Below, one piece after another: positions 4,911-47,331 of a DNA stretch of 64,000 nucleotides. Source of the DNA: a virus; IMG/VR virus record IMGVR_UViG_3300042923_000524, positions 64,001 through 128,000 of that record. One strand, written 5' to 3'. A model generated the notes under the pieces. The model was not told where the DNA came from and searched no databases. It saw only the letters and a list, made by a program, of their open reading frames with translations. Position 1 is the stretch's first letter, and each line of letters starts with the position of its first letter. The translations under genes and the position numbers were made by a program.

Positions 4911-6350
4911 TTATAAATAAACTACATCATCTTTACTTATCGCATATACTTTAGCACTACTACACTTCTGACTTAGTCGTTCCTCCAGTAATTCAGCAAA
5001 TTGCACTTTATTTGAGAACTCTCCATGAACTAAACATATTTGTTTTAATCCATTTATACTACTATAATACTCAAGCATTTCATTGTGCTGAATATGTGAA
5101 GAGTATGATTTTAATTCAACTATATTACATTTGTTTTTAACTTCATCCTTGCCAATAAATATAGTTTTATATTTTTTGCTCTTAATTTTACCTAAAATAC
5201 TATCATCAGGAGAATAACCTATTGTTACAATACAACTATTTTCATCTTGTAATATATATGGTAAATAATGCATTACTCTTCCTGCGCTACACATTCCACT
5301 AGCTGAAATTAAAATTGAACTCTCATTGCTTGATACATTCATTTTACTTTCATCAGATGAATTGATAATATTTAATTTATCCCAATACAATATCTCATTA
5401 AGATAACTCTTTTCATCACCTTCTAATTGATTTAAATATTCCTCTGTGATTTTTATTGCAAGAGGACTATCTAAGTATATGGGCAGATTAAAGCTGTTAT
5501 CATCTTTAAATATAGTATATAAATCACTTAATATTTCTTGTGTTCTGGCAAATGAAAAAGATGGAATAAGTATTCTACCTTTTTTCCTATCTATAATATC
5601 GCAAACTATTGTTTTTAATTTTTCTAAATCTTTAAGCCTTGTTTTAGAATTTACATTATTAATTTTCATAGCATAAGTTGATTCAACTATTGCCATATCT
5701 GCATATTCTACAGGCTTAAACTCTTCAACAAAATGCTTTTTACCAACAATTAGGTTGCCTATATCTCCTGTGTATAGTAATACCTTTTTAATATTATTGA
5801 TTGTAATAAAAAGTTCAACTTGATTTGCACCGAATAAATGCCCACTAGGAGTAAATCTGAAGCTTAAAATATCATCAATCTTATGTATTGTGTTTGTCTC
5901 ATATTCTGTTATATGGTTTAAGCATTTATCTGTATCACATTTTTCATAGAAAGGTTTGATATTTTTACCCTGTTTTGATAATATTTCAGATGTTCTATTA
6001 ATAATGTGGCAACTATCTTCTAAAAGTAGTTTCATTATTCCACCTGTATTTTTAGGAATTATTATATCTGCATTACAATTATTTTTTTCTTTATATAAAG
6101 CAGGAGTCAAACCAATGTGGTCAATATTATTATGGGTGAAAAATATATGAGTTATTTCGCTAGGTCTAAATTTAAATGCTCTTGAATTTATTTGCATGTC
6201 TTTTAATGTGGAATTGCTTTGGTAAAGACCACATTCGAGTAAAATTTTATGATTTTTAAATTCTACGAGAATCATTGAATTTGTTACATCATGTGCATTT
6301 TCTCCCACAAATGAGACTTTAATATCTTCGCTTTTCTTCTTACTCCCCAT
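4911..6350 (-). CDS. Metallo-beta-lactamase / beta-CASP family nuclease
   Basis: LLECG, THNNIDHIG (variant HxHxDH), SGHLFGA, YTGDIG, VESTY, IPSFSFARTQE, SASGMC..GR, SSH, LVHGE. Confidence 0.85.
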   Translation of the reverse strand: MGSKKKSEDIKVSFVGENAHDVTNSMILVEFKNHKILLECGLYQSNSTLKDMQINSRAFKFRPSEITHIFFTHNNIDHIGLTPALYKEKNNCNADIIIPKNTGGIMKLLLEDSCHIINRTSEILSKQGKNIKPFYEKCDTDKCLNHITEYETNTIHKIDDILSFRFTPSGHLFGANQVELFITINNIKKVLLYTGDIGNLIVGKKHFVEEFKPVEYADMAIVESTYAMKINNVNSKTRLKDLEKLKTIVCDIIDRKKGRILIPSFSFARTQEILSDLYTIFKDDNSFNLPIYLDSPLAIKITEEYLNQLEGDEKSYLNEILYWDKLNIINSSDESKMNVSSNESSILISASGMCSAGRVMHYLPYILQDENSCIVTIGYSPDDSILGKIKSKKYKTIFIGKDEVKNKCNIVELKSYSSHIQHNEMLEYYSSINGLKQICLVHGEFSNKVQFAELLEERLSQKCSSAKVYAISKDDVVYL

Positions 6351-6956: not shown

Positions 6957-9581
6957 TTATACAGAATTTTTCTTTTTATTGTAATATTCTTTCTGTTTTT
7001 CTCTATTGTATTTTTTCCATTCTTCTTTGCTACAATCTGGACAGTATTTTTTATTTGATGTTGTTTGCTGAATTCTTTCACCGCATTTTTCGCAAGATAT
7101 AGAATCATTAGCAATATTATTTTTTATATTTTCAAGTATTGTATCTCCAAAACATTCCCATAAAGTAGTTTTATAGTTGCTTTGTTTGTGTTTATATAAA
7201 TATTCAACTAGAACATCTACTACATAATTTACATTATCATTTATTTCTAATATTTCTTTTTTTATATCTTGATAGATATATGGTATGTTATTTGTTTCAT
7301 CATCGTCTTCAGAGCAATTAATCATAAAGTGTTTTTTTAAATCCATCTCTTGATATTTATCAATAATGCTATTATCCAACTTAACTCTTTTGTTTTTCAT
7401 TAGTACTTTATAATCAAATTTTCCTAAACCTATAGAATTAAAATTAATTTTGGGATTAGGTATGATTTTCTCTAGTTTGTTTACAACACTATGATTAATC
7501 TTTTCCACTTCTTCTTTCTTCTTGTCTTTGGCATATATAAAGAAGTGTGGCACTTTTGATTTAGTATAATCCGTAATTAGTTTTTTCTTATTCTTTGGTC
7601 TTTCTGGTTTATATAATGTCTTAGCAAAATCTATCGTAAAGTTATTTTCCATACATAATAACTTAATTACATCAATGTCTATGTTCTCACTATTCCATAT
7701 TTTAGTTATGTCGTTGCTAATCATACCAATGTTTCCACCTGTATAAGCAGACTTTAATCCATTATAAATAGTTTGATTGTCAATCTTTTCTGCTGGTGCT
7801 TTTCTCATATTATAATATAAAGGCACTATATCTTTCATATTGCGTTCAGATGCCTCTATAATCGTTTTTTCTGCACACACTAGGCTCTTATCCCCATCGT
7901 TATCAAATTGTAGAATCTTGGAAATTAAATCATGACAACTGGTGTATATAGCATCTGTAGTAAACCATTCACTCTTTTGCTTATCAACTATATTTCTTCT
8001 TACTGCATGCTCACGGAACAAATGAGGTGAACGCAAACAGTCAAGTTTATCTATATTCTTATATATTTTACAGAATACTTCTCCGTCTTCTAATAGACCT
8101 TTTGGATTCTTATCACCTAAAAACAAATATTCACAGAAAGCATATAAATCAGGAGATAGGAATGTGTATACTCCATTTATATCTACTTTTCCAGCTCTGC
8201 CATCTCTAACAATACTCTTTTTTACTTGTTTTAATATTTCTTTACTATATGTGTCATTCAATAATTCTGGATATATCTCTAATGCTTGTTGAATGTAATT
8301 CTTATTTTTATTAGAAGGCACAACGCCTAACACTTTTAACATTGTCTTTTTATCCGAACCAATACTTTTAATATTATGGATAGTTGTTTTAGAAATAGTC
8401 GCTAATTCTTTATCTGTCATATCTGTGAGAGTCTGAAGCATCTGATAGTTAATTTTTGCATTGTTAAAAGTATCTTCTTCCTCATTACATTTACCTGCTT
8501 GACAATTATATTTAATAAATTTATCTATGTAATCTTGCCATGAAGAGTAATATTTGTACATCTTAAATTGACTCTTAGTAAATATTACTTCTATACCATC
8601 TTTTAAAATATCCCATTCTTTTCCGTATATATCAGTAACTTTACTATAATCTTTTCCTTCAGTGTTTTTATTAGCTTCATTAATAAATTTATCAAAAGGA
8701 AAAGACATTAGAAGTCCCTTAATCCAAGGTAATCTCACCATCATGTTTTTCTTTGATTTGCTAGTTAAATACATTCCACAGCCGTCTGTGTGCGTTACAG
8801 GTATATCCATTTGCTTTCTTGTAATCTCATATGTAGTATCATCAATAAAATCAACAACGCCATTAACCATTGTTTCCATATCATCAACTACAATAGACTT
8901 AGTTATATCAAAATCTTCCCATATGTCAGTTGCAGAATTACAAAGAGCTAGATATGCCAAGAATTTATTAATATTAACTCCACCATTATCATTTATATCT
9001 TCAATTGTTAATCCACACATTAAAGTATTTTTATATTTATTGAATATAGATTCTTTTATAAATACTGTTTTCTTTGTTCTTATTTGTCCTGCTGAAGCTG
9101 TAAGACAAATATATTTTTCTCCATTGTGCATATATCCATCTAGTATTATATCTTCAATTACATCAAAGAAATAAGTTTGAACAATCATTATATCTTCATA
9201 TAATTGGTTTTGCTCCATATTTGCAGTTCTAGTTAATACGGAATCAAATACAGATATAATTCTATGTTTATTTAGACAATCTTTATTAAGATTTCTAATT
9301 CCTTTGTGTTTTTCAAACTCAATATATAACTTTTCCTTAGTATGTTTAATTTCTTTATTGGTTTTTTCTAGTAGTAGTTTAATTTTATCATTATGATTTG
9401 ATGCAATCATTTCTCTAATATGCTCTGGTATTAGTTTAAATTTGAATTTATCTCTTTTCTTTACTAATTTCTTGCGATACATATATAAACTATTGAGTCT
9501 TTTATGTATTTTCATTTCATTATCATTATAGAAACATGACGTATCCACTGAATATATATGTATTTGTTTTTTTAAGCTAAT
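6957..9581 (-). CDS. yonO: YonO-like single-subunit (double-psi beta-barrel) phage RNA polymerase
   Basis: SAGQIRTKK, TDGCG, RLPWIKG, RSPHL and catalytic LQFDNDGDK (DxDGD). The ORF extends 11 codons upstream of the called GTG to an ATT at 9581 placed 7 nt after AGGAGG. Confidence 0.9.
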   Translation of the reverse strand: MSLKKQIHIYSVDTSCFYNDNEMKIHKRLNSLYMYRKKLVKKRDKFKFKLIPEHIREMIASNHNDKIKLLLEKTNKEIKHTKEKLYIEFEKHKGIRNLNKDCLNKHRIISVFDSVLTRTANMEQNQLYEDIMIVQTYFFDVIEDIILDGYMHNGEKYICLTASAGQIRTKKTVFIKESIFNKYKNTLMCGLTIEDINDNGGVNINKFLAYLALCNSATDIWEDFDITKSIVVDDMETMVNGVVDFIDDTTYEITRKQMDIPVTHTDGCGMYLTSKSKKNMMVRLPWIKGLLMSFPFDKFINEANKNTEGKDYSKVTDIYGKEWDILKDGIEVIFTKSQFKMYKYYSSWQDYIDKFIKYNCQAGKCNEEEDTFNNAKINYQMLQTLTDMTDKELATISKTTIHNIKSIGSDKKTMLKVLGVVPSNKNKNYIQQALEIYPELLNDTYSKEILKQVKKSIVRDGRAGKVDINGVYTFLSPDLYAFCEYLFLGDKNPKGLLEDGEVFCKIYKNIDKLDCLRSPHLFREHAVRRNIVDKQKSEWFTTDAIYTSCHDLISKILQFDNDGDKSLVCAEKTIIEASERNMKDIVPLYYNMRKAPAEKIDNQTIYNGLKSAYTGGNIGMISNDITKIWNSENIDIDVIKLLCMENNFTIDFAKTLYKPERPKNKKKLITDYTKSKVPHFFIYAKDKKKEEVEKINHSVVNKLEKIIPNPKINFNSIGLGKFDYKVLMKNKRVKLDNSIIDKYQEMDLKKHFMINCSEDDDETNNIPYIYQDIKKEILEINDNVNYVVDVLVEYLYKHKQSNYKTTLWECFGDTILENIKNNIANDSISCEKCGERIQQTTSNKKYCPDCSKEEWKKYNREKQKEYYNKKKNSV

Positions 9582-42195: not shown

Positions 42196-42894
42196 AGATG
42201 GTATAATATATTAGTATACAGGGTTTTATTTCCTGTATACTAATATTAAAACCTAGTAATTGCAACAGGTATAGAAGTTAAATGTTTCGATGAAATGTCA
42301 ATTCTGTCTAGAAAGGAGTTTTGTATGTTAGAATATGAATATTGGGATGTTAAAAAAACAAATAAAACTAATGAAGGATTAATAACTGCTGTTGAGTTAA
42401 GAGATAAAGATTATAATGCATTACAACTTGATTTTAAATGGGACGGTTGTATTAATCTTTGGAAGTATTATAATGGCTATACTCCAGATGATGATTCTGA
42501 AGAAGCTAGAGAAAATATGGATTACATTCATATTTGTGATTTAGAAGAGTTTATAAATCAATTACAAGAAGTCTTAGTTATTGCAAAAGATATATTAGGT
42601 GAAGAAAAATATGAACGTGATTTTAGATAAAAAGAAGATTTTAAAGATATATAATAATTATTTAACAACATTAAAGGAGGAATGAAGATGGTTCAATATA
42701 TATGGGGCGTTATGGCAATTTGCAGTATTACATGGATATTATATTTAACTTTAAAATATAGAAAGTGTATACCTAATATAGTAGCATTGGCAATTAATTT
42801 ACAATCTTTATTATTGTTGGTCATAGTTATTGGCAATATCTATTCAAGATAATTAGTTACAATAAATTATAAAAATAAATATAAAATTTATTTG

Positions 42895-42932
42895 AAATGC
42901 ATATTGCATTTGTTTCCGACATATAATATAAT
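42895..42932 (+). promoter_or_regulatory. sigmaA promoter of the mazF-TPR-peptide locus with a palindromic operator over the -35
   Basis: TTGCAT(42904)-17-TATAAT(42927); AAATGCA-TAT-TGCATTT inverted repeat at 42895-42911. Confidence 0.7.
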
Positions 42933-42967
42933 AAGCATAATAACAAATATAAAAATTATATAAAGGA

Positions 42968-43636
42968 GTGGTAATTGAAATGACAACATGCATTCAAAAC
43001 ATTAATAGTCACACTACATACGATAAACCAATAAACACACTAATCAACGCAGCACAAAAATTATTAGAGGTACGGAAAGGTGATTTGATATTTGTAGACT
43101 TTGACCAACTAATAAAAAGTGGTAGAGACCATAGTATACAATCGAAACCTAGACCAGCGGTAGTTTTAAGCAATAACGTTGGAAACAAGTTTTCACCTAC
43201 TATTTGGGTGGCAACATTAACTTCTAATCTTAACAAAAATAAACTACCAACACATGTAAAAGTATCTGAAGAAACAGGACTTAGATTTGATTCGTTGGTT
43301 TTAGTAGAACAGGTATTCACAATTGACAAAAAACTTATATTATCAAAAGTGGGGAAATGTTCAGCACATATAATGGAGCAAATTGACACAGCAGTTAAAA
43401 TTCAAGCAGGTACAATTGATTTAGAGTATATAGAAGATACAGTTAATTGGATTAATAAAGTAGAGTGCGAAGCTCGAATAAATGGGTTTGACCCAGAGGA
43501 TGCAAGATTACACACTAGACTAGTTAAGGAATTGCAATCTTATTGTAATCAATATGGATATGATTATACTAAGGTATTAAAAGAAAAAACATTTATAAAA
43601 GTCTCCGTGGACAATAGAAAACAAAATGCAATGTAA
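42968..43636 (+). CDS. MazF/PemK endoribonuclease with a C-terminal extension of about 65 aa
   Basis: KGDLIFVDF...SKPRPAVVLSN...PTIWVATLTS...PTHV...DSLVLVEQVFTIDK. Catalytic Arg/Thr positions are kept and no upstream antitoxin gene is seen. Confidence 0.85.
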   Translation: MVIEMTTCIQNINSHTTYDKPINTLINAAQKLLEVRKGDLIFVDFDQLIKSGRDHSIQSKPRPAVVLSNNVGNKFSPTIWVATLTSNLNKNKLPTHVKVSEETGLRFDSLVLVEQVFTIDKKLILSKVGKCSAHIMEQIDTAVKIQAGTIDLEYIEDTVNWINKVECEARINGFDPEDARLHTRLVKELQSYCNQYGYDYTKVLKEKTFIKVSVDNRKQNAM

Positions 43637-43645
43637 AATATAAAA

Positions 43646-44305
43646 ATGGAGGACGGCATGATGAACAATAATTTTGTAGGGGAACAGAATGAGGTTAGAA
43701 CTTTTATAGATAAAAGTAAATTTAATGAAGCAATTTTTAAATGTAAAACAGTATTAGAAACATTAAACGATAATTATATCGAAGATAATCACAACAAATG
43801 GTTTTTTAATCTAAGAATTGCAATATGTTATAGAAAAAAAGGTCAATTTAAAAAAGCATTAAATTATGTATTTGAAAGTAAAAACTACACAAATGATTTA
43901 AAAGAGCATATGGAATGTAATTGGGTTTTAGGAAATTGTTATTACTCTATGAAGTTATATAAAAAAGCTACACTATTTTTTAGACAATGCAGTGACTACT
44001 TTACAAACAACAACATGGAAGATGAACGTATTCATATGGATTTCAACATTGCAAAAATTGAAAATGACGATGTAAAAATTAATAGACTTTTGATTGAAGC
44101 TTATAATATGGTAAATATCGATGCCGATTCTCTAAGTAATGCAGAGTGGTTTTTCAACAACGCTTATGAAACCCTCTGCGAAATATACATAGATAGAAAT
44201 CAATTAGAAATTTTTGAAGAAACTATTGTTAAAATTAAAGATAGAAATATTGTTGATGATTTACGAAATAGAATGCAAGTGGTGAATATCACTAACATTT
44301 TATAA
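43646..44305 (+). CDS. TPR protein, candidate RRNPP-type peptide receptor
   Basis: TPR-like repeats LRIAICYRKKGQFKKALNY and LGNCYYSMKLYKKATLFF; directly followed by a secreted-peptide gene. Confidence 0.7.
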   Translation: MEDGMMNNNFVGEQNEVRTFIDKSKFNEAIFKCKTVLETLNDNYIEDNHNKWFFNLRIAICYRKKGQFKKALNYVFESKNYTNDLKEHMECNWVLGNCYYSMKLYKKATLFFRQCSDYFTNNNMEDERIHMDFNIAKIENDDVKINRLLIEAYNMVNIDADSLSNAEWFFNNAYETLCEIYIDRNQLEIFEETIVKIKDRNIVDDLRNRMQVVNITNIL

Positions 44306-44327
44306 TATAAAACAAGGAGGAAAAAGA

Positions 44328-44474
44328 ATGAAAAAAATTGCATTGTTTCTCACAACAGTTGCGGTACTTGCGATGTTGGTTGGAGGTATGGTTTTTGCTT
44401 CTGACGTTACAGACCCAAAAGTAGCTAAACCAGTGGTAGTGAGTCCTAATTCTGACGTTACAGACCCAAGATAA
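44328..44474 (+). CDS. Secreted signalling pro-peptide (48 aa) with a duplicated SDVTDP(K/R)
   Basis: AAGGAGG RBS; MKKIALFLTTVAVLAMLVGGMVFA|SDVTDPKVAKPVVVSPNSDVTDPR. Sec signal peptide with a VFA cleavage site; 20-nt exact repeat at 44399 and 44450. Confidence 0.85.
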   Translation: MKKIALFLTTVAVLAMLVGGMVFASDVTDPKVAKPVVVSPNSDVTDPR

Positions 44475-44542
44475 TTAATAAAACAAGAGGGGTGAAATGC
44501 CCCTCAAACAAAAAACTACAATAAAAATGAGGTGACAACATT

Positions 44543-44893
44543 ATGATAGACCAAAACAAAGTAAAAAATCTATGTGAAAAATATAAAATCAACTACAAAA
44601 TACATCCTAATAATATCTATATGGAAACTCCATTAAATACTTGGATATGTGAAGATAAGGATACTCACTATCGCCTTAAACATAAAAATAAAGGTGTCTG
44701 TAAACATACGATGCATATGCACGATAGAAAATTTGAAAATGTAAATGAAGTATTAGAATATATACATACTCATGACACAAAGACAATATTTGACCGTAGA
44801 AGAAGTAATGAGAGAAGATTAGATAGGTTATTTGAATCTATATCAATACATAAAAAATCAAATAAGAAAATAAATAAATCAATTAGTATATAA
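44543..44893 (+). CDS. Hypothetical His-rich protein
   Basis: 116 aa ORF after the peptide hairpin, GAGG RBS. Confidence 0.6.
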   Translation: MIDQNKVKNLCEKYKINYKIHPNNIYMETPLNTWICEDKDTHYRLKHKNKGVCKHTMHMHDRKFENVNEVLEYIHTHDTKTIFDRRRSNERRLDRLFESISIHKKSNKKINKSISI

Positions 44894-45025
44894 ATAGATT
44901 AACATAAATAATGAATATAAATATTTTTCATGATTCACACATACATATCAGTATAATTACTTGACACCAAGGATATAATTATATTAAGATATAAATAAGA
45001 ATGAATATAAAAGGATGTGTGAGTT

Positions 45026-46336
45026 ATGAAAATAGGAAAAGATAGAGATTTACTAGAGAAAGAATTAGCAAAAATATTCGTAAAGTATAATTTAGATAAT
45101 AATGTAATCAATAAAATTAAAGAAGAATTTATATCAAGAGGGGTATCTTCAGGAGAATTCTTGTCTATTATAGATGGCAAAATTCAGATTGAAACAATCC
45201 CTCTTAATATGCTTTGTCTTTTAACAGAGTTGTTTTATAAAGAAACTACAGAGCAAAATATAAAACCAGAAACTTATTTTACTGAACAAGAAATTAACAC
45301 AGCTAAGAATTTTAGACGAGAGTCAGAAGAACAATCTAAATATCCATTAGTATTTGAAAATGTCATGAAGATTGGTGATGACCACTATGTAACATATAAA
45401 ACAGCTCAAGAAGTTGCTGGTTACTATGCAAAGAATTTAATTGTTTATAACAAACAAACTCAAAGAAATGCAAAGTACAGTGAGTATCAAGATAAAATTG
45501 TTGAAATGATAAGTATAAATAAATCTTCTATTTCTGATATTGCAAAAGATATTGTTGAGGGCAGACAAATTACAAACTTTATCACTTTTAATATTCTTCA
45601 AAATGGCGAAGAGAATTTTGAATATGATGCTAAAAATAAAACTTTAACTGTATTTGAAGGTGAGATTGATATACTTGACGGTTTTCATAGGTCAATGGGA
45701 ATTCTCTCAGCAGTACAGAAAGAGCCTAATGTAAAATATATCACTGGAATTAATATAGTGAATTGGGATATTGAAAAATCAAGAAGATTTATTGTACAGG
45801 AAGATAAGAGAAATAAGATTAATGCTTCTCATGTAAAATCACTTAATCCAGATAGATATGAAAACATGATTATTAAAAAACTAAATGAGAGTAGTTCAAG
45901 TGATTTAAAAGGCAAAATTACTACAGATAATTTATTTATAAGAAAACATAAAGCTTTAACAACATATGATGTTATTAATAATACTATTCAAAAAGAATAT
46001 AAAGACATTAAAACCAATAGAGATGCTTCTTTAATTGCTGAATGGTTAATTGAATTCTTTAATGAATTAATTGGTTTGTATCCAACTGAGTTTTTAACTG
46101 AAATTGAATCTACTAAGGAAACTTCATTTATTAACAATGAGAATATGTTCGCAGGTTATATTTCACTTTCAAAAGAATTACAGAATGTTAGCAATTGGAG
46201 ACAAAAACTACAGGAAGTGATGAGTAAAATTGATTTTAGCGTTAATAATTCTAAGTGGGAAAGTCTTAAATCTGCAACAGAATTAAACAAGAGATTATTA
46301 AAGAATATATCTAATTATTTTAGAGAGATTGTTTAG
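45026..46336 (+). CDS. DndB/DGQHR-domain protein, SPbeta YopQ (SroE)-like
   Basis: NKQTQR, NFITFNI, DILDGFHR motif, FIVQED; precedes an integrase-fold gene as yopQ precedes yopR. Confidence 0.65.
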   Translation: MKIGKDRDLLEKELAKIFVKYNLDNNVINKIKEEFISRGVSSGEFLSIIDGKIQIETIPLNMLCLLTELFYKETTEQNIKPETYFTEQEINTAKNFRRESEEQSKYPLVFENVMKIGDDHYVTYKTAQEVAGYYAKNLIVYNKQTQRNAKYSEYQDKIVEMISINKSSISDIAKDIVEGRQITNFITFNILQNGEENFEYDAKNKTLTVFEGEIDILDGFHRSMGILSAVQKEPNVKYITGINIVNWDIEKSRRFIVQEDKRNKINASHVKSLNPDRYENMIIKKLNESSSSDLKGKITTDNLFIRKHKALTTYDVINNTIQKEYKDIKTNRDASLIAEWLIEFFNELIGLYPTEFLTEIESTKETSFINNENMFAGYISLSKELQNVSNWRQKLQEVMSKIDFSVNNSKWESLKSATELNKRLLKNISNYFREIV

Positions 46337-46365
46337 TTAAAAAATTAAGAAAGGTGTGAATATAA

Positions 46366-47331
46366 TTGAAACATTTTATTATGTATAATCCAGAATTAAA
46401 AAATGTTTATCTTAATACTATTGACAACGAAGGAACTAGAGAAAATATTGGATATACTTTTCAAAAGGCTAGAATACTAGAAGATGAAAAAGGAAAAGAT
46501 ATATGTCATTTTAATTTTGATGAATTAGGTGAATTATGGAGTAGCTTCAGAGCAAAAAGTTTTGCTGCCATTACTACTAAAGTTAGTATTATAGTTAAGT
46601 ATATTGACTTTTGTATTGATAAAGGATTGGCTGATGTAAACTACAATTGGGCAAAGATGTACTTTAATGAAGATGGATTAAGACCATATGTAAGCAAAGT
46701 TGCTATAGGTAATAAAATAATTGACAAAGAAACTTTAGAAGATATAATTGATTTTTGTGCTAACGCTCAAGATGCTGTAATCTTTGCATTATTATTTGAA
46801 GGTGTAAAGGGTAGACCAATACAAGAAAATGCCTTTGAAGAAGTTAGGAATCTTAGAATGGTTGATTGTAATACTGATACTAATGATATTATACTAAGAC
46901 AAGATGATGGTAAAACAAGAGTTATTCAAATATCTGAAAGAACTATGAATTTAATAGTAGATGCTTATAATCAACAAACGTATTTAAGAAAAAATGGCGA
47001 ATCAACCGCAAAACTTAAAGAGATAGAAATGATTGATACAGGTTATGTTTTAAAATTAGGTGATATAGGCAAGAATTCCAATTCGAGTGAAGATAGAATA
47101 AGTCATCAAGTTTTATTTAGAAGACTAAAGAATATTGCAAAAGCATATGGAAATAGTTTTTTAACACCTACTAATATTTACATGAGTGGAATGGTTGACT
47201 ATGCTCAAAGACTGCAAACTGAAAAAGGTGTAGAATTAGACAATAATGATTATATTCATATATGTGAGAAATATGGAATAGACCCTAAAAGATGGTATAA
47301 GATAAAAGTGGAGATTAAGCAGTATCTATAA
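46366..47331 (+). CDS. Integrase-fold protein lacking catalytic motifs, SPbeta YopR/MrpR master-repressor-like
   Basis: DAVIFALLFEGVKG...EEVRNLRMVD; LTPTNIYMSG replaces HxLRH. Confidence 0.65.
   Translation: MKHFIMYNPELKNVYLNTIDNEGTRENIGYTFQKARILEDEKGKDICHFNFDELGELWSSFRAKSFAAITTKVSIIVKYIDFCIDKGLADVNYNWAKMYFNEDGLRPYVSKVAIGNKIIDKETLEDIIDFCANAQDAVIFALLFEGVKGRPIQENAFEEVRNLRMVDCNTDTNDIILRQDDGKTRVIQISERTMNLIVDAYNQQTYLRKNGESTAKLKEIEMIDTGYVLKLGDIGKNSNSSEDRISHQVLFRRLKNIAKAYGNSFLTPTNIYMSGMVDYAQRLQTEKGVELDNNDYIHICEKYGIDPKRWYKIKVEIKQYL

What the first reader, a model, noticed from the sequence alone, without database searches (positions are those of the whole stretch)
42895..47331. Arbitrium-like locus with its own MazF: mazF - TPR receptor - secreted peptide - ORF - yopQ-like - mrpR-like
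Seen: a promoter with a palindromic operator drives an orphan MazF (catalytic motifs intact, about 65-aa C-terminal extension), a 219-aa TPR protein with no evident HTH, and a Sec-signal peptide gene; DGxHR and dead-integrase genes follow. Established: in SPbeta/phi3T the aimR-aimP locus lies upstream of the yopM-yopR (sro) operon, and the lysis-lysogeny decision works through the host MazEF. Inference: this clostridial phage carries the toxin itself, and the HTH-less TPR protein may be a peptide-gated antitoxin or regulator of MazF rather than a transcription factor.
Basis: partly seen in the sequence, partly recalled or inferred. Interest (0 to 1): 0.87.

Follow-up and report, generated by a model that had tools for sequence, protein, structure and literature searches.

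The report
Phage MazF, TPR sensor, secreted peptide
A 138-kb soil phage of Clostridium-type bacteria carries its own RNA-cutting MazF toxin, a small repeat protein and a secreted mini-peptide directly in front of its SPbeta-type dormancy genes; this looks like an undescribed phage peptide-signalling switch, but no binding or signalling step has been shown.

Summary
They are an extended MazF/PemK RNase, a 214/215-aa all-TPR protein, a 48-aa Sec-type pro-peptide carrying SDVTDP(K/R) twice, a 116-aa ORF, a YopQ/DndB-like gene and an MrpR/YopR-like gene.

Comparison splits the locus into two layers:
- **Backbone.** MazF directly upstream of yopQ-mrpR recurs in six distinct elements, including Clostridium phage c-st (CST027-CST030).
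- **Cassette.** TPR, with or without the peptide gene, sits right behind mazF in only four of them.

A Tissierellia MAG (likely a prophage; TPR 36% identical) has the same mazF-TPR-peptide-hairpin-yopQ-mrpR order. Its peptide also carries its motif twice (CSEPEDP). The closest relative phage keeps MazF and TPR but has lost the peptide gene.

The TPR protein has no HTH and no detectable AimR homology. It fails the RRNPP length criterion, so it is not arbitrium proper.

The palindromic "operator" is no better than chance and is not conserved.

Three elements carry MazF without TPR, so TPR cannot be the obligatory antitoxin. Whether TPR acts on MazF at all is untested.

Earlier notes of this scan describe the same cassette in at least seven other genomes. 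I found no publication describing it.

The parts
42895..42911 (.).
   Evidence: The palindrome is present. Repeats of this kind occur once per 865 nt in the window. It is not repeated elsewhere and not conserved in L001 or L085. No consensus promoter is listed here.
42980..43636 (+). Extended MazF/PemK-family endoribonuclease, 218 aa. The core is residues 31-148, with a 30-aa N-terminal and a roughly 70-aa helical C-terminal extension.
   Evidence: - PF02452 E 9e-25 and phrog_1936 E 2e-27.
- Aligns with Bacillus MazF structures 4hke and 4mdx.
- The subfamily with a conserved tail is 59-89% identical in the closer set and 43-45% in L085 and L006.
- dN/dS 0.08 against L001.
- It is the only PemK gene in the phage.
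- No MazE/AbrB domain in the phage.
43658..44305 (+). All-TPR protein of 215 aa (214 aa from the ATG at 43661, the start conserved in L001), with no DNA-binding domain: the candidate peptide receptor
   Evidence: - TPR_1/TPR_2 and no HTH.
- AF2 model pLDDT 94.8, 11 helices.
- Best structural matches are peptide-binding TPR domains: NprR-NprX Z 19.5, LGN, KLC1, RapI 17.5, PlcR-PapR 16.6.
- Belongs to a family of roughly 200-220-aa proteins.
- W89 and N130 are kept in 19 and 17 of 21 rows.
- dN/dS 0.22.
44328..44474 (+). 48-aa Sec-type pre-pro-peptide, MKK-hydrophobic core-VFA|SDVTDPK...SDVTDPR. The motif is encoded twice by an exact 20-nt repeat (44399-44418 and 44450-44469).
   Evidence: The counterpart in L085 (49 aa) carries CSEPEDP twice, encoded by an exact 21-nt repeat. 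The gene is absent from the whole G001 record.
44487..44505 (+). GC-rich hairpin (GAGGGG-N7-CCCCTC) directly after the peptide gene, with no U-run on the + strand
   Evidence: dG is -13 kcal/mol and z is -4.4. A hairpin sits at the same position in L001 (-14.4, z -3.7) and L085 (-12.5, z -2.8). The terminator scan lists it only for the minus strand.
44543..44893 (+). 116-aa His/Cys-rich protein of unknown function. It starts 37 nt after the hairpin with no promoter of its own, the positional analogue of aimX.
   Evidence: - No Pfam, PHROG, NCBIfam or PADLOC family.
- 66% identical in L001, with dN/dS 0.20.
- Weak match to the C-terminal half of c-st CST028 (E 0.002).
- Absent from L085 and L118.
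44950..44990 (+). Promoter TTGACA(44961)-18-TAAGAT, embraced by the inverted repeat AGTATAATTA / TAATTATATT, in front of yopQ-like
   Evidence: Listed by the promoter scan. The sequence is conserved in L001 and largely in L085. It is unique in the window.
45026..46336 (+). YopQ/SroE-like DndB-family protein (436 aa, motif DGFHR)
   Evidence: PF14072 E 5e-9, phrog_5732 E 1e-88. tblastn gives 29.6% identity over 81% of the query to SPbeta yopQ, and also matches phi3T and c-st CST029.
46366..47331 (+). MrpR/YopR/SroF-like recombinase-fold repressor (321 aa from TTG 46366; the Pfam match starts at residue 6, near ATG 46381)
   Evidence: PF22822 E 1e-20, PF22823 E 5e-14, phrog_5830. The gene always follows yopQ in relatives.

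Best explanation
This is the lysis-lysogeny control region of a 138-kb SPbeta-like phage of Clostridia.

**Backbone.** A phage-borne MazF RNase is followed by the YopQ/SroE-like protein and the MrpR/YopR/SroF-like repressor.

**Cassette.** Directly behind mazF, and in one operon with it, sits a minimal RRNPP-type sensing cassette:
- a 215-aa protein that is only a TPR superhelix;
- a Sec-exported pro-peptide that yields two copies of an SDVTDP(K/R) peptide.

**Proposed mechanism (inferred, not shown).**
1. The peptide is secreted, processed and re-imported.
2. It binds the concave groove of the TPR protein.
3. The TPR protein has no DNA-binding domain, so it acts through protein contact, as Rap proteins do.
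4. Its most likely target is the MazF encoded 21 nt upstream, possibly through the MazF helical tail.
5. By analogy with phi3T, where active MazF favours lysogeny, apo-TPR would hold MazF in check early in infection. Accumulated peptide would then release it and push the phage towards lysogeny.

In this reading the cassette does in one protein what AimR plus AimX do in arbitrium, and the phage brings its own MazF instead of using the host's.
For: **Shown**
- Gene identities.
- MazF core with the catalytic Arg and Thr motifs invariant, under strong purifying selection (dN/dS 0.08).
- MazF directly upstream of yopQ-mrpR in six distinct elements: the window, G001, the Tissierellia MAG, L118, L028 and phage c-st. 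Seventy-nine other MazF loci show none of these neighbours.
- mazF-TPR spacing of 18-29 nt in all four loci that have TPR.
- L085 repeats the whole design at 36% TPR and 43% MazF identity: a signal-peptide gene 28 nt after TPR, the motif twice on an exact 21-nt repeat, a GC hairpin, then yopQ-mrpR.
- The TPR protein is entirely a TPR superhelix. Its best structural matches are peptide-bound TPR domains, including NprR-NprX, RapI and PlcR-PapR. A Trp and an Asn on alternate helices are conserved across the family.
- Four of the five published RRNPP signature criteria are met (criteria in PMC10075063).
- The position equals that of aimR-aimP-stem loop in SPbeta.
- No MazE-type domain in the phage.

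**Indirect**
- MazF-tail proteins P0008 and P0009 sit on contigs of the same lengths (10935 and 5870 nt) as TPR proteins P0013 and P0028.

**Published**
- Host MazF activity promotes phi3T lysogeny, and AimX and YosL bind MazF (PMC10769878).
Against: - No interaction has been shown: not TPR with peptide, and not TPR with MazF.
- Phage c-st has an extended MazF with a homologous tail but a non-TPR gene after it. L118 and L028 have MazF next to yopQ-mrpR with nothing in between. MazF is therefore tolerated and functional without TPR, and the tail does not require TPR.
- The nearest relative (G001) has lost the peptide gene yet keeps TPR.
- Only two receptor-peptide pairs could be read, so covariation cannot be tested.
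- The TPR fold match is equally good to eukaryotic TPR domains, so it is generic.
- TPR is net acidic (-5) and so is the peptide.
- No MazF-TPR fusion was found.
- The signal peptide was judged by simple heuristics only.
Confidence: 0.4

Rival explanations
1. TPR plus peptide is a true sensing pair, but its target is not MazF. As with phage Rap-Phr, the TPR protein would bind another protein: the MrpR-like repressor, the YopQ-like protein, the 116-aa protein, or a host regulator such as a sporulation factor. MazF would be a separate, constitutive part of the repressor module.
For: - The cassette is modular. The backbone MazF-yopQ-mrpR exists without it in c-st, L118 and L028.
- The c-st MazF has the tail but no TPR.
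- Rap receptors of SPbeta-like phages lack DNA-binding domains and act on host proteins. Rap structures are among the fold matches.
Against: In all four loci TPR follows mazF within 18-29 nt and is never found elsewhere. No other conserved partner is common to all four: the 116-aa ORF is missing in L085.
Confidence: 0.25
2. TPR is a constitutive partner of the extended MazF (an unconventional antitoxin, chaperone or adaptor), with the gene order toxin then antitoxin. The small secreted peptide is unrelated to it, for example a surface or lysogenic-conversion peptide.
For: - G001 keeps mazF and TPR tightly linked and under purifying selection without any peptide gene.
- No MazE-like gene in the phage.
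- Spacing consistent with co-transcription and tight linkage.
Against: - MazF occurs without TPR in three related elements.
- The peptide gene recurs at the same place, with the same two-copy design and hairpin, in a very distant locus. That is hard to explain for an unrelated passenger.
Confidence: 0.15
3. There is no functional link. The TPR gene and the small ORF are accessory 'moron' genes that happened to insert between mazF and yopQ, and the small ORF may not make a signal at all.
For: - The TPR family is rare: one genome among 185,579 species scanned with two motifs, and none in GenBank phages.
- The region between mazF and yopQ is variable in content.
Against: - Conserved order and spacing across 36-67% TPR identity.
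- Purifying selection on TPR.
- Strong ribosome-binding sites and exact internal repeats in both peptide genes.
Confidence: 0.1

Closest known systems
Arbitrium of SPbeta/phi3T (AimR-AimP-AimX, acting through host MazE-MazF, upstream of the sro/yopM-yopR operon)
   Same: - Receptor gene, then a short Sec-type pro-peptide gene, then a stem-loop, then a small ORF, then yopQ-yopR, all on one strand.
- A MazF-family RNase is part of the decision circuit (PMC10769878).
- The recombinase-fold repressor MrpR/SroF follows (PMC10516654; 10.1101/2025.11.27.690993).
   Different: - The receptor is 215 aa rather than 386 aa.
- It has no HTH and no detectable AimR homology.
- MazF is encoded by the phage itself and carries extra N- and C-terminal parts.
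- There are no yopM/N/O/P homologues between the cassette and yopQ.
- The peptide motif is present twice.
- The host is Clostridia, not Bacillus.
Rap-Phr systems, including phage-borne Rap of phi3T, phi105 and plasmid pLS20
   Same: - TPR receptor without a DNA-binding domain that acts by binding proteins.
- Pro-peptide gene directly downstream.
- Profile matches to RapJ (E 2e-9) and RapF (1.6e-6), and fold matches at Z 15.8-17.5.
   Different: - Rap proteins are about 375 aa and have an N-terminal three-helix bundle that contacts the target. Here the whole protein is the TPR part only.
- The matches are no better than to eukaryotic LGN or KLC TPR domains, so they are generic.
- The receptor fails the 250-500-aa RRNPP criterion.
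MazEF type II toxin-antitoxin (B. subtilis EndoA/MazF-MazE)
   Same: The MazF core is alignable end to end at about 40-45% identity. The catalytic Arg and Thr motifs and the KLPTHV motif are kept.
   Different: - No MazE/AbrB-type gene upstream or anywhere in the phage.
- The extensions have no known family.
- The downstream neighbour is a TPR protein.
Clostridium phage c-st genes CST027-CST030 (annotated PemK family regulator, hypothetical protein, YopQ homologue, YopR homologue)
   Same: Extended MazF of 220 aa with a homologous tail (E 2e-20 over residues 22-200), then yopQ and yopR. This shows that the backbone exists in a sequenced, named phage.
   Different: - The gene between mazF and yopQ (CST028) is not a TPR protein (hhalign probability 0.1%).
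- There is no secreted-peptide gene.
- No function has been assigned to these genes in the record.
Extracellular death factor (EDF) peptides reported to act on E. coli and B. subtilis MazF (own knowledge; contested in the literature)
   Same: A small extracellular peptide is proposed to tune MazF activity.
   Different: - EDF is said to bind MazF directly.
- EDF is not encoded next to mazF.
- No TPR receptor is involved.

Membership tests
Arbitrium (AimR-AimP-AimX) | Receptor with an N-terminal HTH DNA-binding domain | tested here: not met
   Pfam finds only TPR families. In the model (pLDDT 94.8) the TPR superhelix runs from residue 7 to the end, and residues 1-215 align to TPR domains.
Arbitrium (AimR-AimP-AimX) | Receptor homologous to the AimR family | tested here: inconclusive
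   hhalign of the 21-sequence TPR profile against SPbeta AimR gives probability 0.6%. No AimR appears among the PDB profile hits. Very remote kinship between TPR-like repeats cannot be excluded.
Arbitrium (AimR-AimP-AimX) | Short secreted pro-peptide gene directly downstream of the receptor, with the mature peptide at its C-terminus | tested here: met
   A 48-aa ORF starts 22 nt after TPR and has a Sec-type N-terminus. SDVTDPR is the C-terminus. Secretion was judged by heuristics only.
Arbitrium (AimR-AimP-AimX) | Lies upstream of the yopQ-yopR (sro) repressor genes of an SPbeta-like phage | tested here: met
   
Arbitrium (AimR-AimP-AimX) | Receptor controls read-through or transcription of a downstream aimX-type output | not testable with these tools
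   A hairpin and a promoter-less 116-aa ORF sit at the right place, but regulation cannot be computed.
RRNPP quorum sensing (signature of PMC10075063) | Pro-peptide of 10-100 aa adjacent to the receptor gene | tested here: met
   48 aa, with a 22-nt gap, on the same strand. The same holds in L085.
RRNPP quorum sensing (signature of PMC10075063) | Pro-peptide exported by Sec | tested here: inconclusive
   The n-region MKK, a 15-residue hydrophobic core and VFA|S fit. No SignalP run was available.
RRNPP quorum sensing (signature of PMC10075063) | Receptor carries TPRs | tested here: met
   
RRNPP quorum sensing (signature of PMC10075063) | Receptor 250-500 aa long | tested here: not met
   The protein is 214/215 aa, and the whole family is about 200-225 aa. 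This is why the default survey settings would miss it.
RRNPP quorum sensing (signature of PMC10075063) | Mature peptide binds the receptor's TPR groove | not testable with these tools
   No tool for peptide docking was left. Only two receptor-peptide pairs are known (window and L085).
Rap (Rap-Phr) | N-terminal three-helix bundle plus seven TPRs, about 375 aa | tested here: not met
   The protein is 215 aa with 11 helices. It aligns to residues 101-352 of RapI, the TPR part only.
MazF/PemK toxin of type II TA systems | PemK/MazF fold domain with the catalytic Arg and Thr | tested here: met
   PF02452 E 9e-25. Alignment to 4hke and 4mdx keeps RP and SPT, and both are invariant in nine subfamily members. 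T48 is named as catalytic in PMC10769878; R25 is from my own knowledge.
MazF/PemK toxin of type II TA systems | Adjacent MazE-type antitoxin gene | tested here: not met
   No PF04014 match in the whole 138-kb phage. The upstream ORF is a 56-aa hydrophobic protein.
MrpR/YopR/SroF repressor with YopQ/SroE | MrpR N-terminal core-binding and C-terminal recombinase-like domains, preceded by a DndB-like YopQ gene | tested here: met
   PF22822 and PF22823, PF14072, and tblastn to SPbeta yopQ. The loss of the recombinase catalytic residues was not checked residue by residue.

The most novel reading that the evidence does not exclude
The 215-aa TPR protein is a ligand-gated inhibitor of the phage's own MazF. 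It would be a quorum-peptide-controlled toxin switch that sets lysis versus lysogeny in Clostridia phages without any DNA-binding receptor. That would make it a second, mechanistically distinct phage communication system besides arbitrium.
Probability: 0.25. Interest if true: 0.9.

Novelty: new variant of a known kind. Interest (0 to 1): 0.7.

Why it matters
Peptide communication between phages is established only for arbitrium phages of Bacillus. A 2026 review still lists no system outside the Bacillales (PMC13389391).

If this cassette signals, three things follow:
- Phage-phage communication would extend to large temperate phages of Clostridia.
- A receptor half the size of any RRNPP member would be shown to suffice.
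- A quorum signal would be linked directly to an RNase toxin that the phage carries itself.

It would also explain why the standard RRNPP search (receptor 250-500 aa) has not reported it.

Independently of the cassette, the finding that MazF is a recurrent neighbour of the YopQ-MrpR repressor pair matters on its own. This includes a sequenced, named Clostridium phage. It suggests that the MazF dependence of SPbeta-type lysogeny is ancient, and that Bacillus phages may have outsourced to the host what their clostridial relatives encode themselves.

Tried and rejected
**Structure and complex prediction**
- Complex prediction with MazF (two copies) plus TPR gave no verdict (score 0.01, controls not run). 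It is neither for nor against binding.
- The AF2 model of the extended MazF was too poor to use (pLDDT 60.8 from 7 sequences). It says only that the tail is helical.

The Logan and JGI contigs of most MazF-tail and TPR family members could therefore not be read.

**Searches that found nothing**
- DNA searches against phages and plasmids.
- tblastn of three TPR family members against GenBank phages.
- IMG/VR scans returned only G001 for the TPR and MazF-tail families.
- 400 Clostridia genomes held only generic long TPR proteins, apart from G002.
- A search for MazF-TPR fusions, prompted by an earlier scan note, found none. This is weak evidence.
- PADLOC and NCBIfam gave nothing specific.
- The MazF tail alone has no Pfam family and no phage match.
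- The ESM Atlas returned generic TPR clusters, and BFVD returned generic viral TPR proteins.

**Ideas tested and dropped**
- The tail of the L001 TPR protein (NSKVTP) resembles the peptide motif NSDVTDP, but not significantly: 7% of shuffles and 4% of natural 17-mers score as well.
- The palindrome as an operator is rejected on frequency and lack of conservation.
- 'The MazF tail exists only where TPR exists' is rejected by phage c-st.

Full report
**What is there.** The window is bases 64001-128000 of a 137,947-bp virus record with direct terminal repeats. It has 27% G+C. On the + strand between 42980 and 47331 lie six genes.

1. *MazF-like gene.* It encodes 218 aa from ATG 42980.
   - Residues 31-148 align end to end with solved Bacillus MazF/EndoA structures (E 3e-21).
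   - The RP and SPT motifs carrying the catalytic Arg and Thr are invariant in nine subfamily members.
   - It has a 30-aa N-terminal and a roughly 70-aa C-terminal extension that belong to no known family.
2. *TPR protein.* It has 215 aa from ATG 43658, or 214 aa from ATG 43661, which is the start conserved in L001.
   - Pfam sees TPR repeats and no HTH.
   - The AF2 model (pLDDT 94.8) is 11 helices forming one TPR superhelix.
3. *Peptide gene.* This 48-codon gene has a strong ribosome-binding site and encodes MKK, a hydrophobic core and VFA|SDVTDPK...SDVTDPR. The motif is encoded by an exact 20-nt repeat.
4. *Hairpin.* A GC-rich hairpin (dG -13 kcal/mol, z -4.4) follows.
5. *116-aa ORF.* This His/Cys-rich ORF starts 37 nt after the hairpin and has no promoter of its own.
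6. *Repressor genes.* Behind a good promoter (TTGACA-18-TAAGAT) come a YopQ/DndB-like gene and an MrpR/YopR-like gene.

The promoter with 'palindromic operator' upstream of mazF is the one part of the observation that does not hold:
- The 7-3-7 palindrome exists, but such repeats occur once per 865 nt here.
- It is unique in the window.
- It is not conserved in relatives.
- No consensus promoter is listed there.

**Relatives and synteny.** The TPR protein has a single close homologue among 5.8 billion proteins (68% identity). That homologue lies in a 130-kb IMG/VR phage (G001/L001).

| Element | Arrangement |
|---|---|
| Window | MazF-tail, TPR, peptide, hairpin, ORF116, yopQ, mrpR |
| G001/L001 (130-kb phage) | MazF-tail (89% id), TPR (67%), ORF122 (66%), yopQ (46%), mrpR (40%); peptide gene missing |
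| L085 (Tissierellia MAG) | MazF-tail (214 aa), TPR (202 aa, 36% id), 49-aa peptide gene, hairpin, yopQ, mrpR |
| L006 (metagenome fragment) | MazF-tail (45% id in A5), then start of a TPR gene 18 nt later, cut by the contig end |
| Phage c-st | CST027 (220-aa MazF, homologous tail, E 2e-20), CST028 (not TPR, probability 0.1%), yopQ and yopR homologues |
| L118 (140-kb IMG/VR phage) | Shorter MazF immediately before yopQ-mrpR |
| L028 (fermentation-metagenome contig) | Shorter MazF immediately before yopQ-mrpR |

Further points on these loci:
- In G001 the peptide gene is absent from the whole record. The TPR reading frame runs on into the retained hairpin.
- In L085 the peptide gene lies 28 nt after TPR. 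Its product is MKLFTK-hydrophobic core-GFC|SEPEDPGTITSSIICSEPEDPIPSK, so it again carries a short acidic ...DP motif twice, on an exact 21-nt repeat.
- A full HMMER search of 1.8 billion representatives found a family of about 20 clusters of 200-225-aa TPR proteins.
- Two TPR proteins (P0013, P0028) sit on contigs of exactly the lengths (10935 and 5870 nt) that hold the MazF-tail proteins P0008 and P0009. This is indirect co-occurrence.
- Seventy-nine other MazF loci fetched from metagenomes have none of these neighbours.
- SPbeta itself has aimR-aimP-stem loop-yopMNOPQR and no MazF.

The locus therefore has two layers. MazF-yopQ-mrpR is a backbone shared by clostridial SPbeta-like phages. TPR, with or without the peptide gene, is a cassette found directly behind mazF in a subset of them.

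**What the parts are likely to do.**
- MazF is under strong purifying selection (dN/dS 0.08 between the window and G001). It keeps its catalytic motifs and is the only PemK gene of the phage. The phage has no MazE/AbrB domain.
- In phi3T, active host MazF favours lysogeny. AimX and YosL bind and block MazF, and the first gene of the sro operon frees MazF by binding MazE (PMC10769878; PMC10516654). A phage-borne MazF at the head of the repressor genes fits this logic directly.
- The TPR protein matches peptide-binding TPR domains best in structure. These are NprR with NprX (Z 19.5), LGN, KLC1, RapI (17.5), PlcR-PapR (16.6) and phage Raps (15.8-15.9).
- These rows are close together, and eukaryotic TPRs score as well. 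The fold therefore says 'peptide-binding type TPR' and no more.
- W89 and N130, on alternate helices, are kept in 19 and 17 of 21 family members.
- Of the five published RRNPP criteria, the locus meets three: a small pro-peptide, TPRs and adjacency. Sec export fits by heuristics only, since no SignalP run was available. The receptor is too short. It shows no AimR homology and lacks the Rap N-terminal bundle.

**Best explanation and its weak points.** I commit to this reading: the cassette is a minimal, non-DNA-binding RRNPP-type sensor whose output is protein binding, most likely to the MazF encoded just upstream. The reading rests on three lines of evidence:
- the invariable position and tight spacing behind mazF;
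- the recurrence of the whole design in a distant lineage;
- the arbitrium-like position.

No binding step is shown. Three elements with MazF but without TPR prove that TPR is not the obligatory antitoxin. Host MazE is one candidate for that role, since 324 of 399 sampled Clostridia genomes carry a MazF homologue, but this is inference. The loss of the peptide gene in G001, with TPR retained, fits either a listener that no longer speaks or a peptide-independent role.

The rival explanations are:
- a sensor with another target (0.25);
- a constitutive MazF partner with an unrelated peptide (0.15);
- no functional link (0.10).

**Novelty.** I found no paper on a MazF-TPR-peptide cassette or on MazF in clostridial SPbeta-like phages. 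Earlier notes of this scan describe the same cassette in at least seven other genomes, with other peptides. I treated them as leads.
- One lead, a MazF-TPR fusion, could not be reproduced with my searches.
- Another, an orphan MazF in front of yopQ-mrpR, I confirmed independently on L118, L028 and c-st.

The system works like arbitrium or Rap-Phr but is a member of neither. I class it as a new variant of a known kind.

Noticed in passing
L001:8580-8760 (IMGVR_UViG_3300031578_000004): In the closest relative the peptide gene is deleted, and the TPR reading frame runs on into the retained GC hairpin, with its stop codon in the loop. The added tail ...CSNSKVTPIKLEGF resembles the peptide motif NSDVTDP. 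This could be a remnant of the peptide gene fused to its receptor, but the similarity is not significant (7% of shuffles score as well).
   Followed up: partly
window 44950-44990; L001 about 9150-9200; L085 about 5895-5945: The promoter in front of yopQ-like (TTGACA-18-TAAGAT) is embraced by an inverted repeat (AGTATAATTA / TAATTATATT). It is conserved in three phages whose repressor proteins are only about 40% identical. It is unique in the window, so it is not an SPBRE-like dispersed element.
   Followed up: partly
L122 (Clostridium phage c-st, AP008983.1 22935-27129): The sequenced phage c-st has the same backbone: CST027 (220-aa MazF with a homologous tail), CST028, CST029 (YopQ) and CST030 (YopR). 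The C-terminal half of CST028 weakly resembles the window's 116-aa ORF (E 0.002).
   Followed up: partly
window 42980-47331 versus L001 7319-11537: Divergence along the locus is very uneven between the two phages: MazF 89% identical, TPR 67%, ORF116 66%, YopQ 46%, MrpR 40%, with dN/dS rising from 0.08 to 0.58. This fits a swapped or fast-evolving repressor (immunity) module next to a conserved toxin.
   Followed up: partly
window 44399-44418 and 44450-44469; L085 5704-5724 and 5749-5769: In both peptide genes the two motif copies are identical at the DNA level (20 and 21 nt), although the genes share no other sequence. This points to recent duplication or gene conversion in each lineage.
   Followed up: partly
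window 44487-44505: The hairpin after the peptide gene has no U-run on the coding strand, but it reads as a good intrinsic terminator on the opposite strand (followed by TTGTTTTATT), where no gene ends nearby. Hairpins sit at the same place in L001 and L085.
   Followed up: partly
L001 about 2328-2432 (G001:C1:62415-62519): The relative phage G001 has an AbrB/MazE-type domain (PF04014, E 2e-10) about 5 kb upstream of its mazF. The window's phage has none anywhere.
   Followed up: no
window 42682-42852: A 56-aa very hydrophobic ORF (two predicted membrane helices) ends 127 nt upstream of mazF. It has no counterpart at this place in L001.
   Followed up: no
L118:3836-4617 and L028:328-1140: In the two elements with a short MazF and no TPR, an XRE-type HTH gene and an uncharacterised 131-137-aa gene lie just upstream of mazF. 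They are candidates for regulators or antitoxins there.
   Followed up: no
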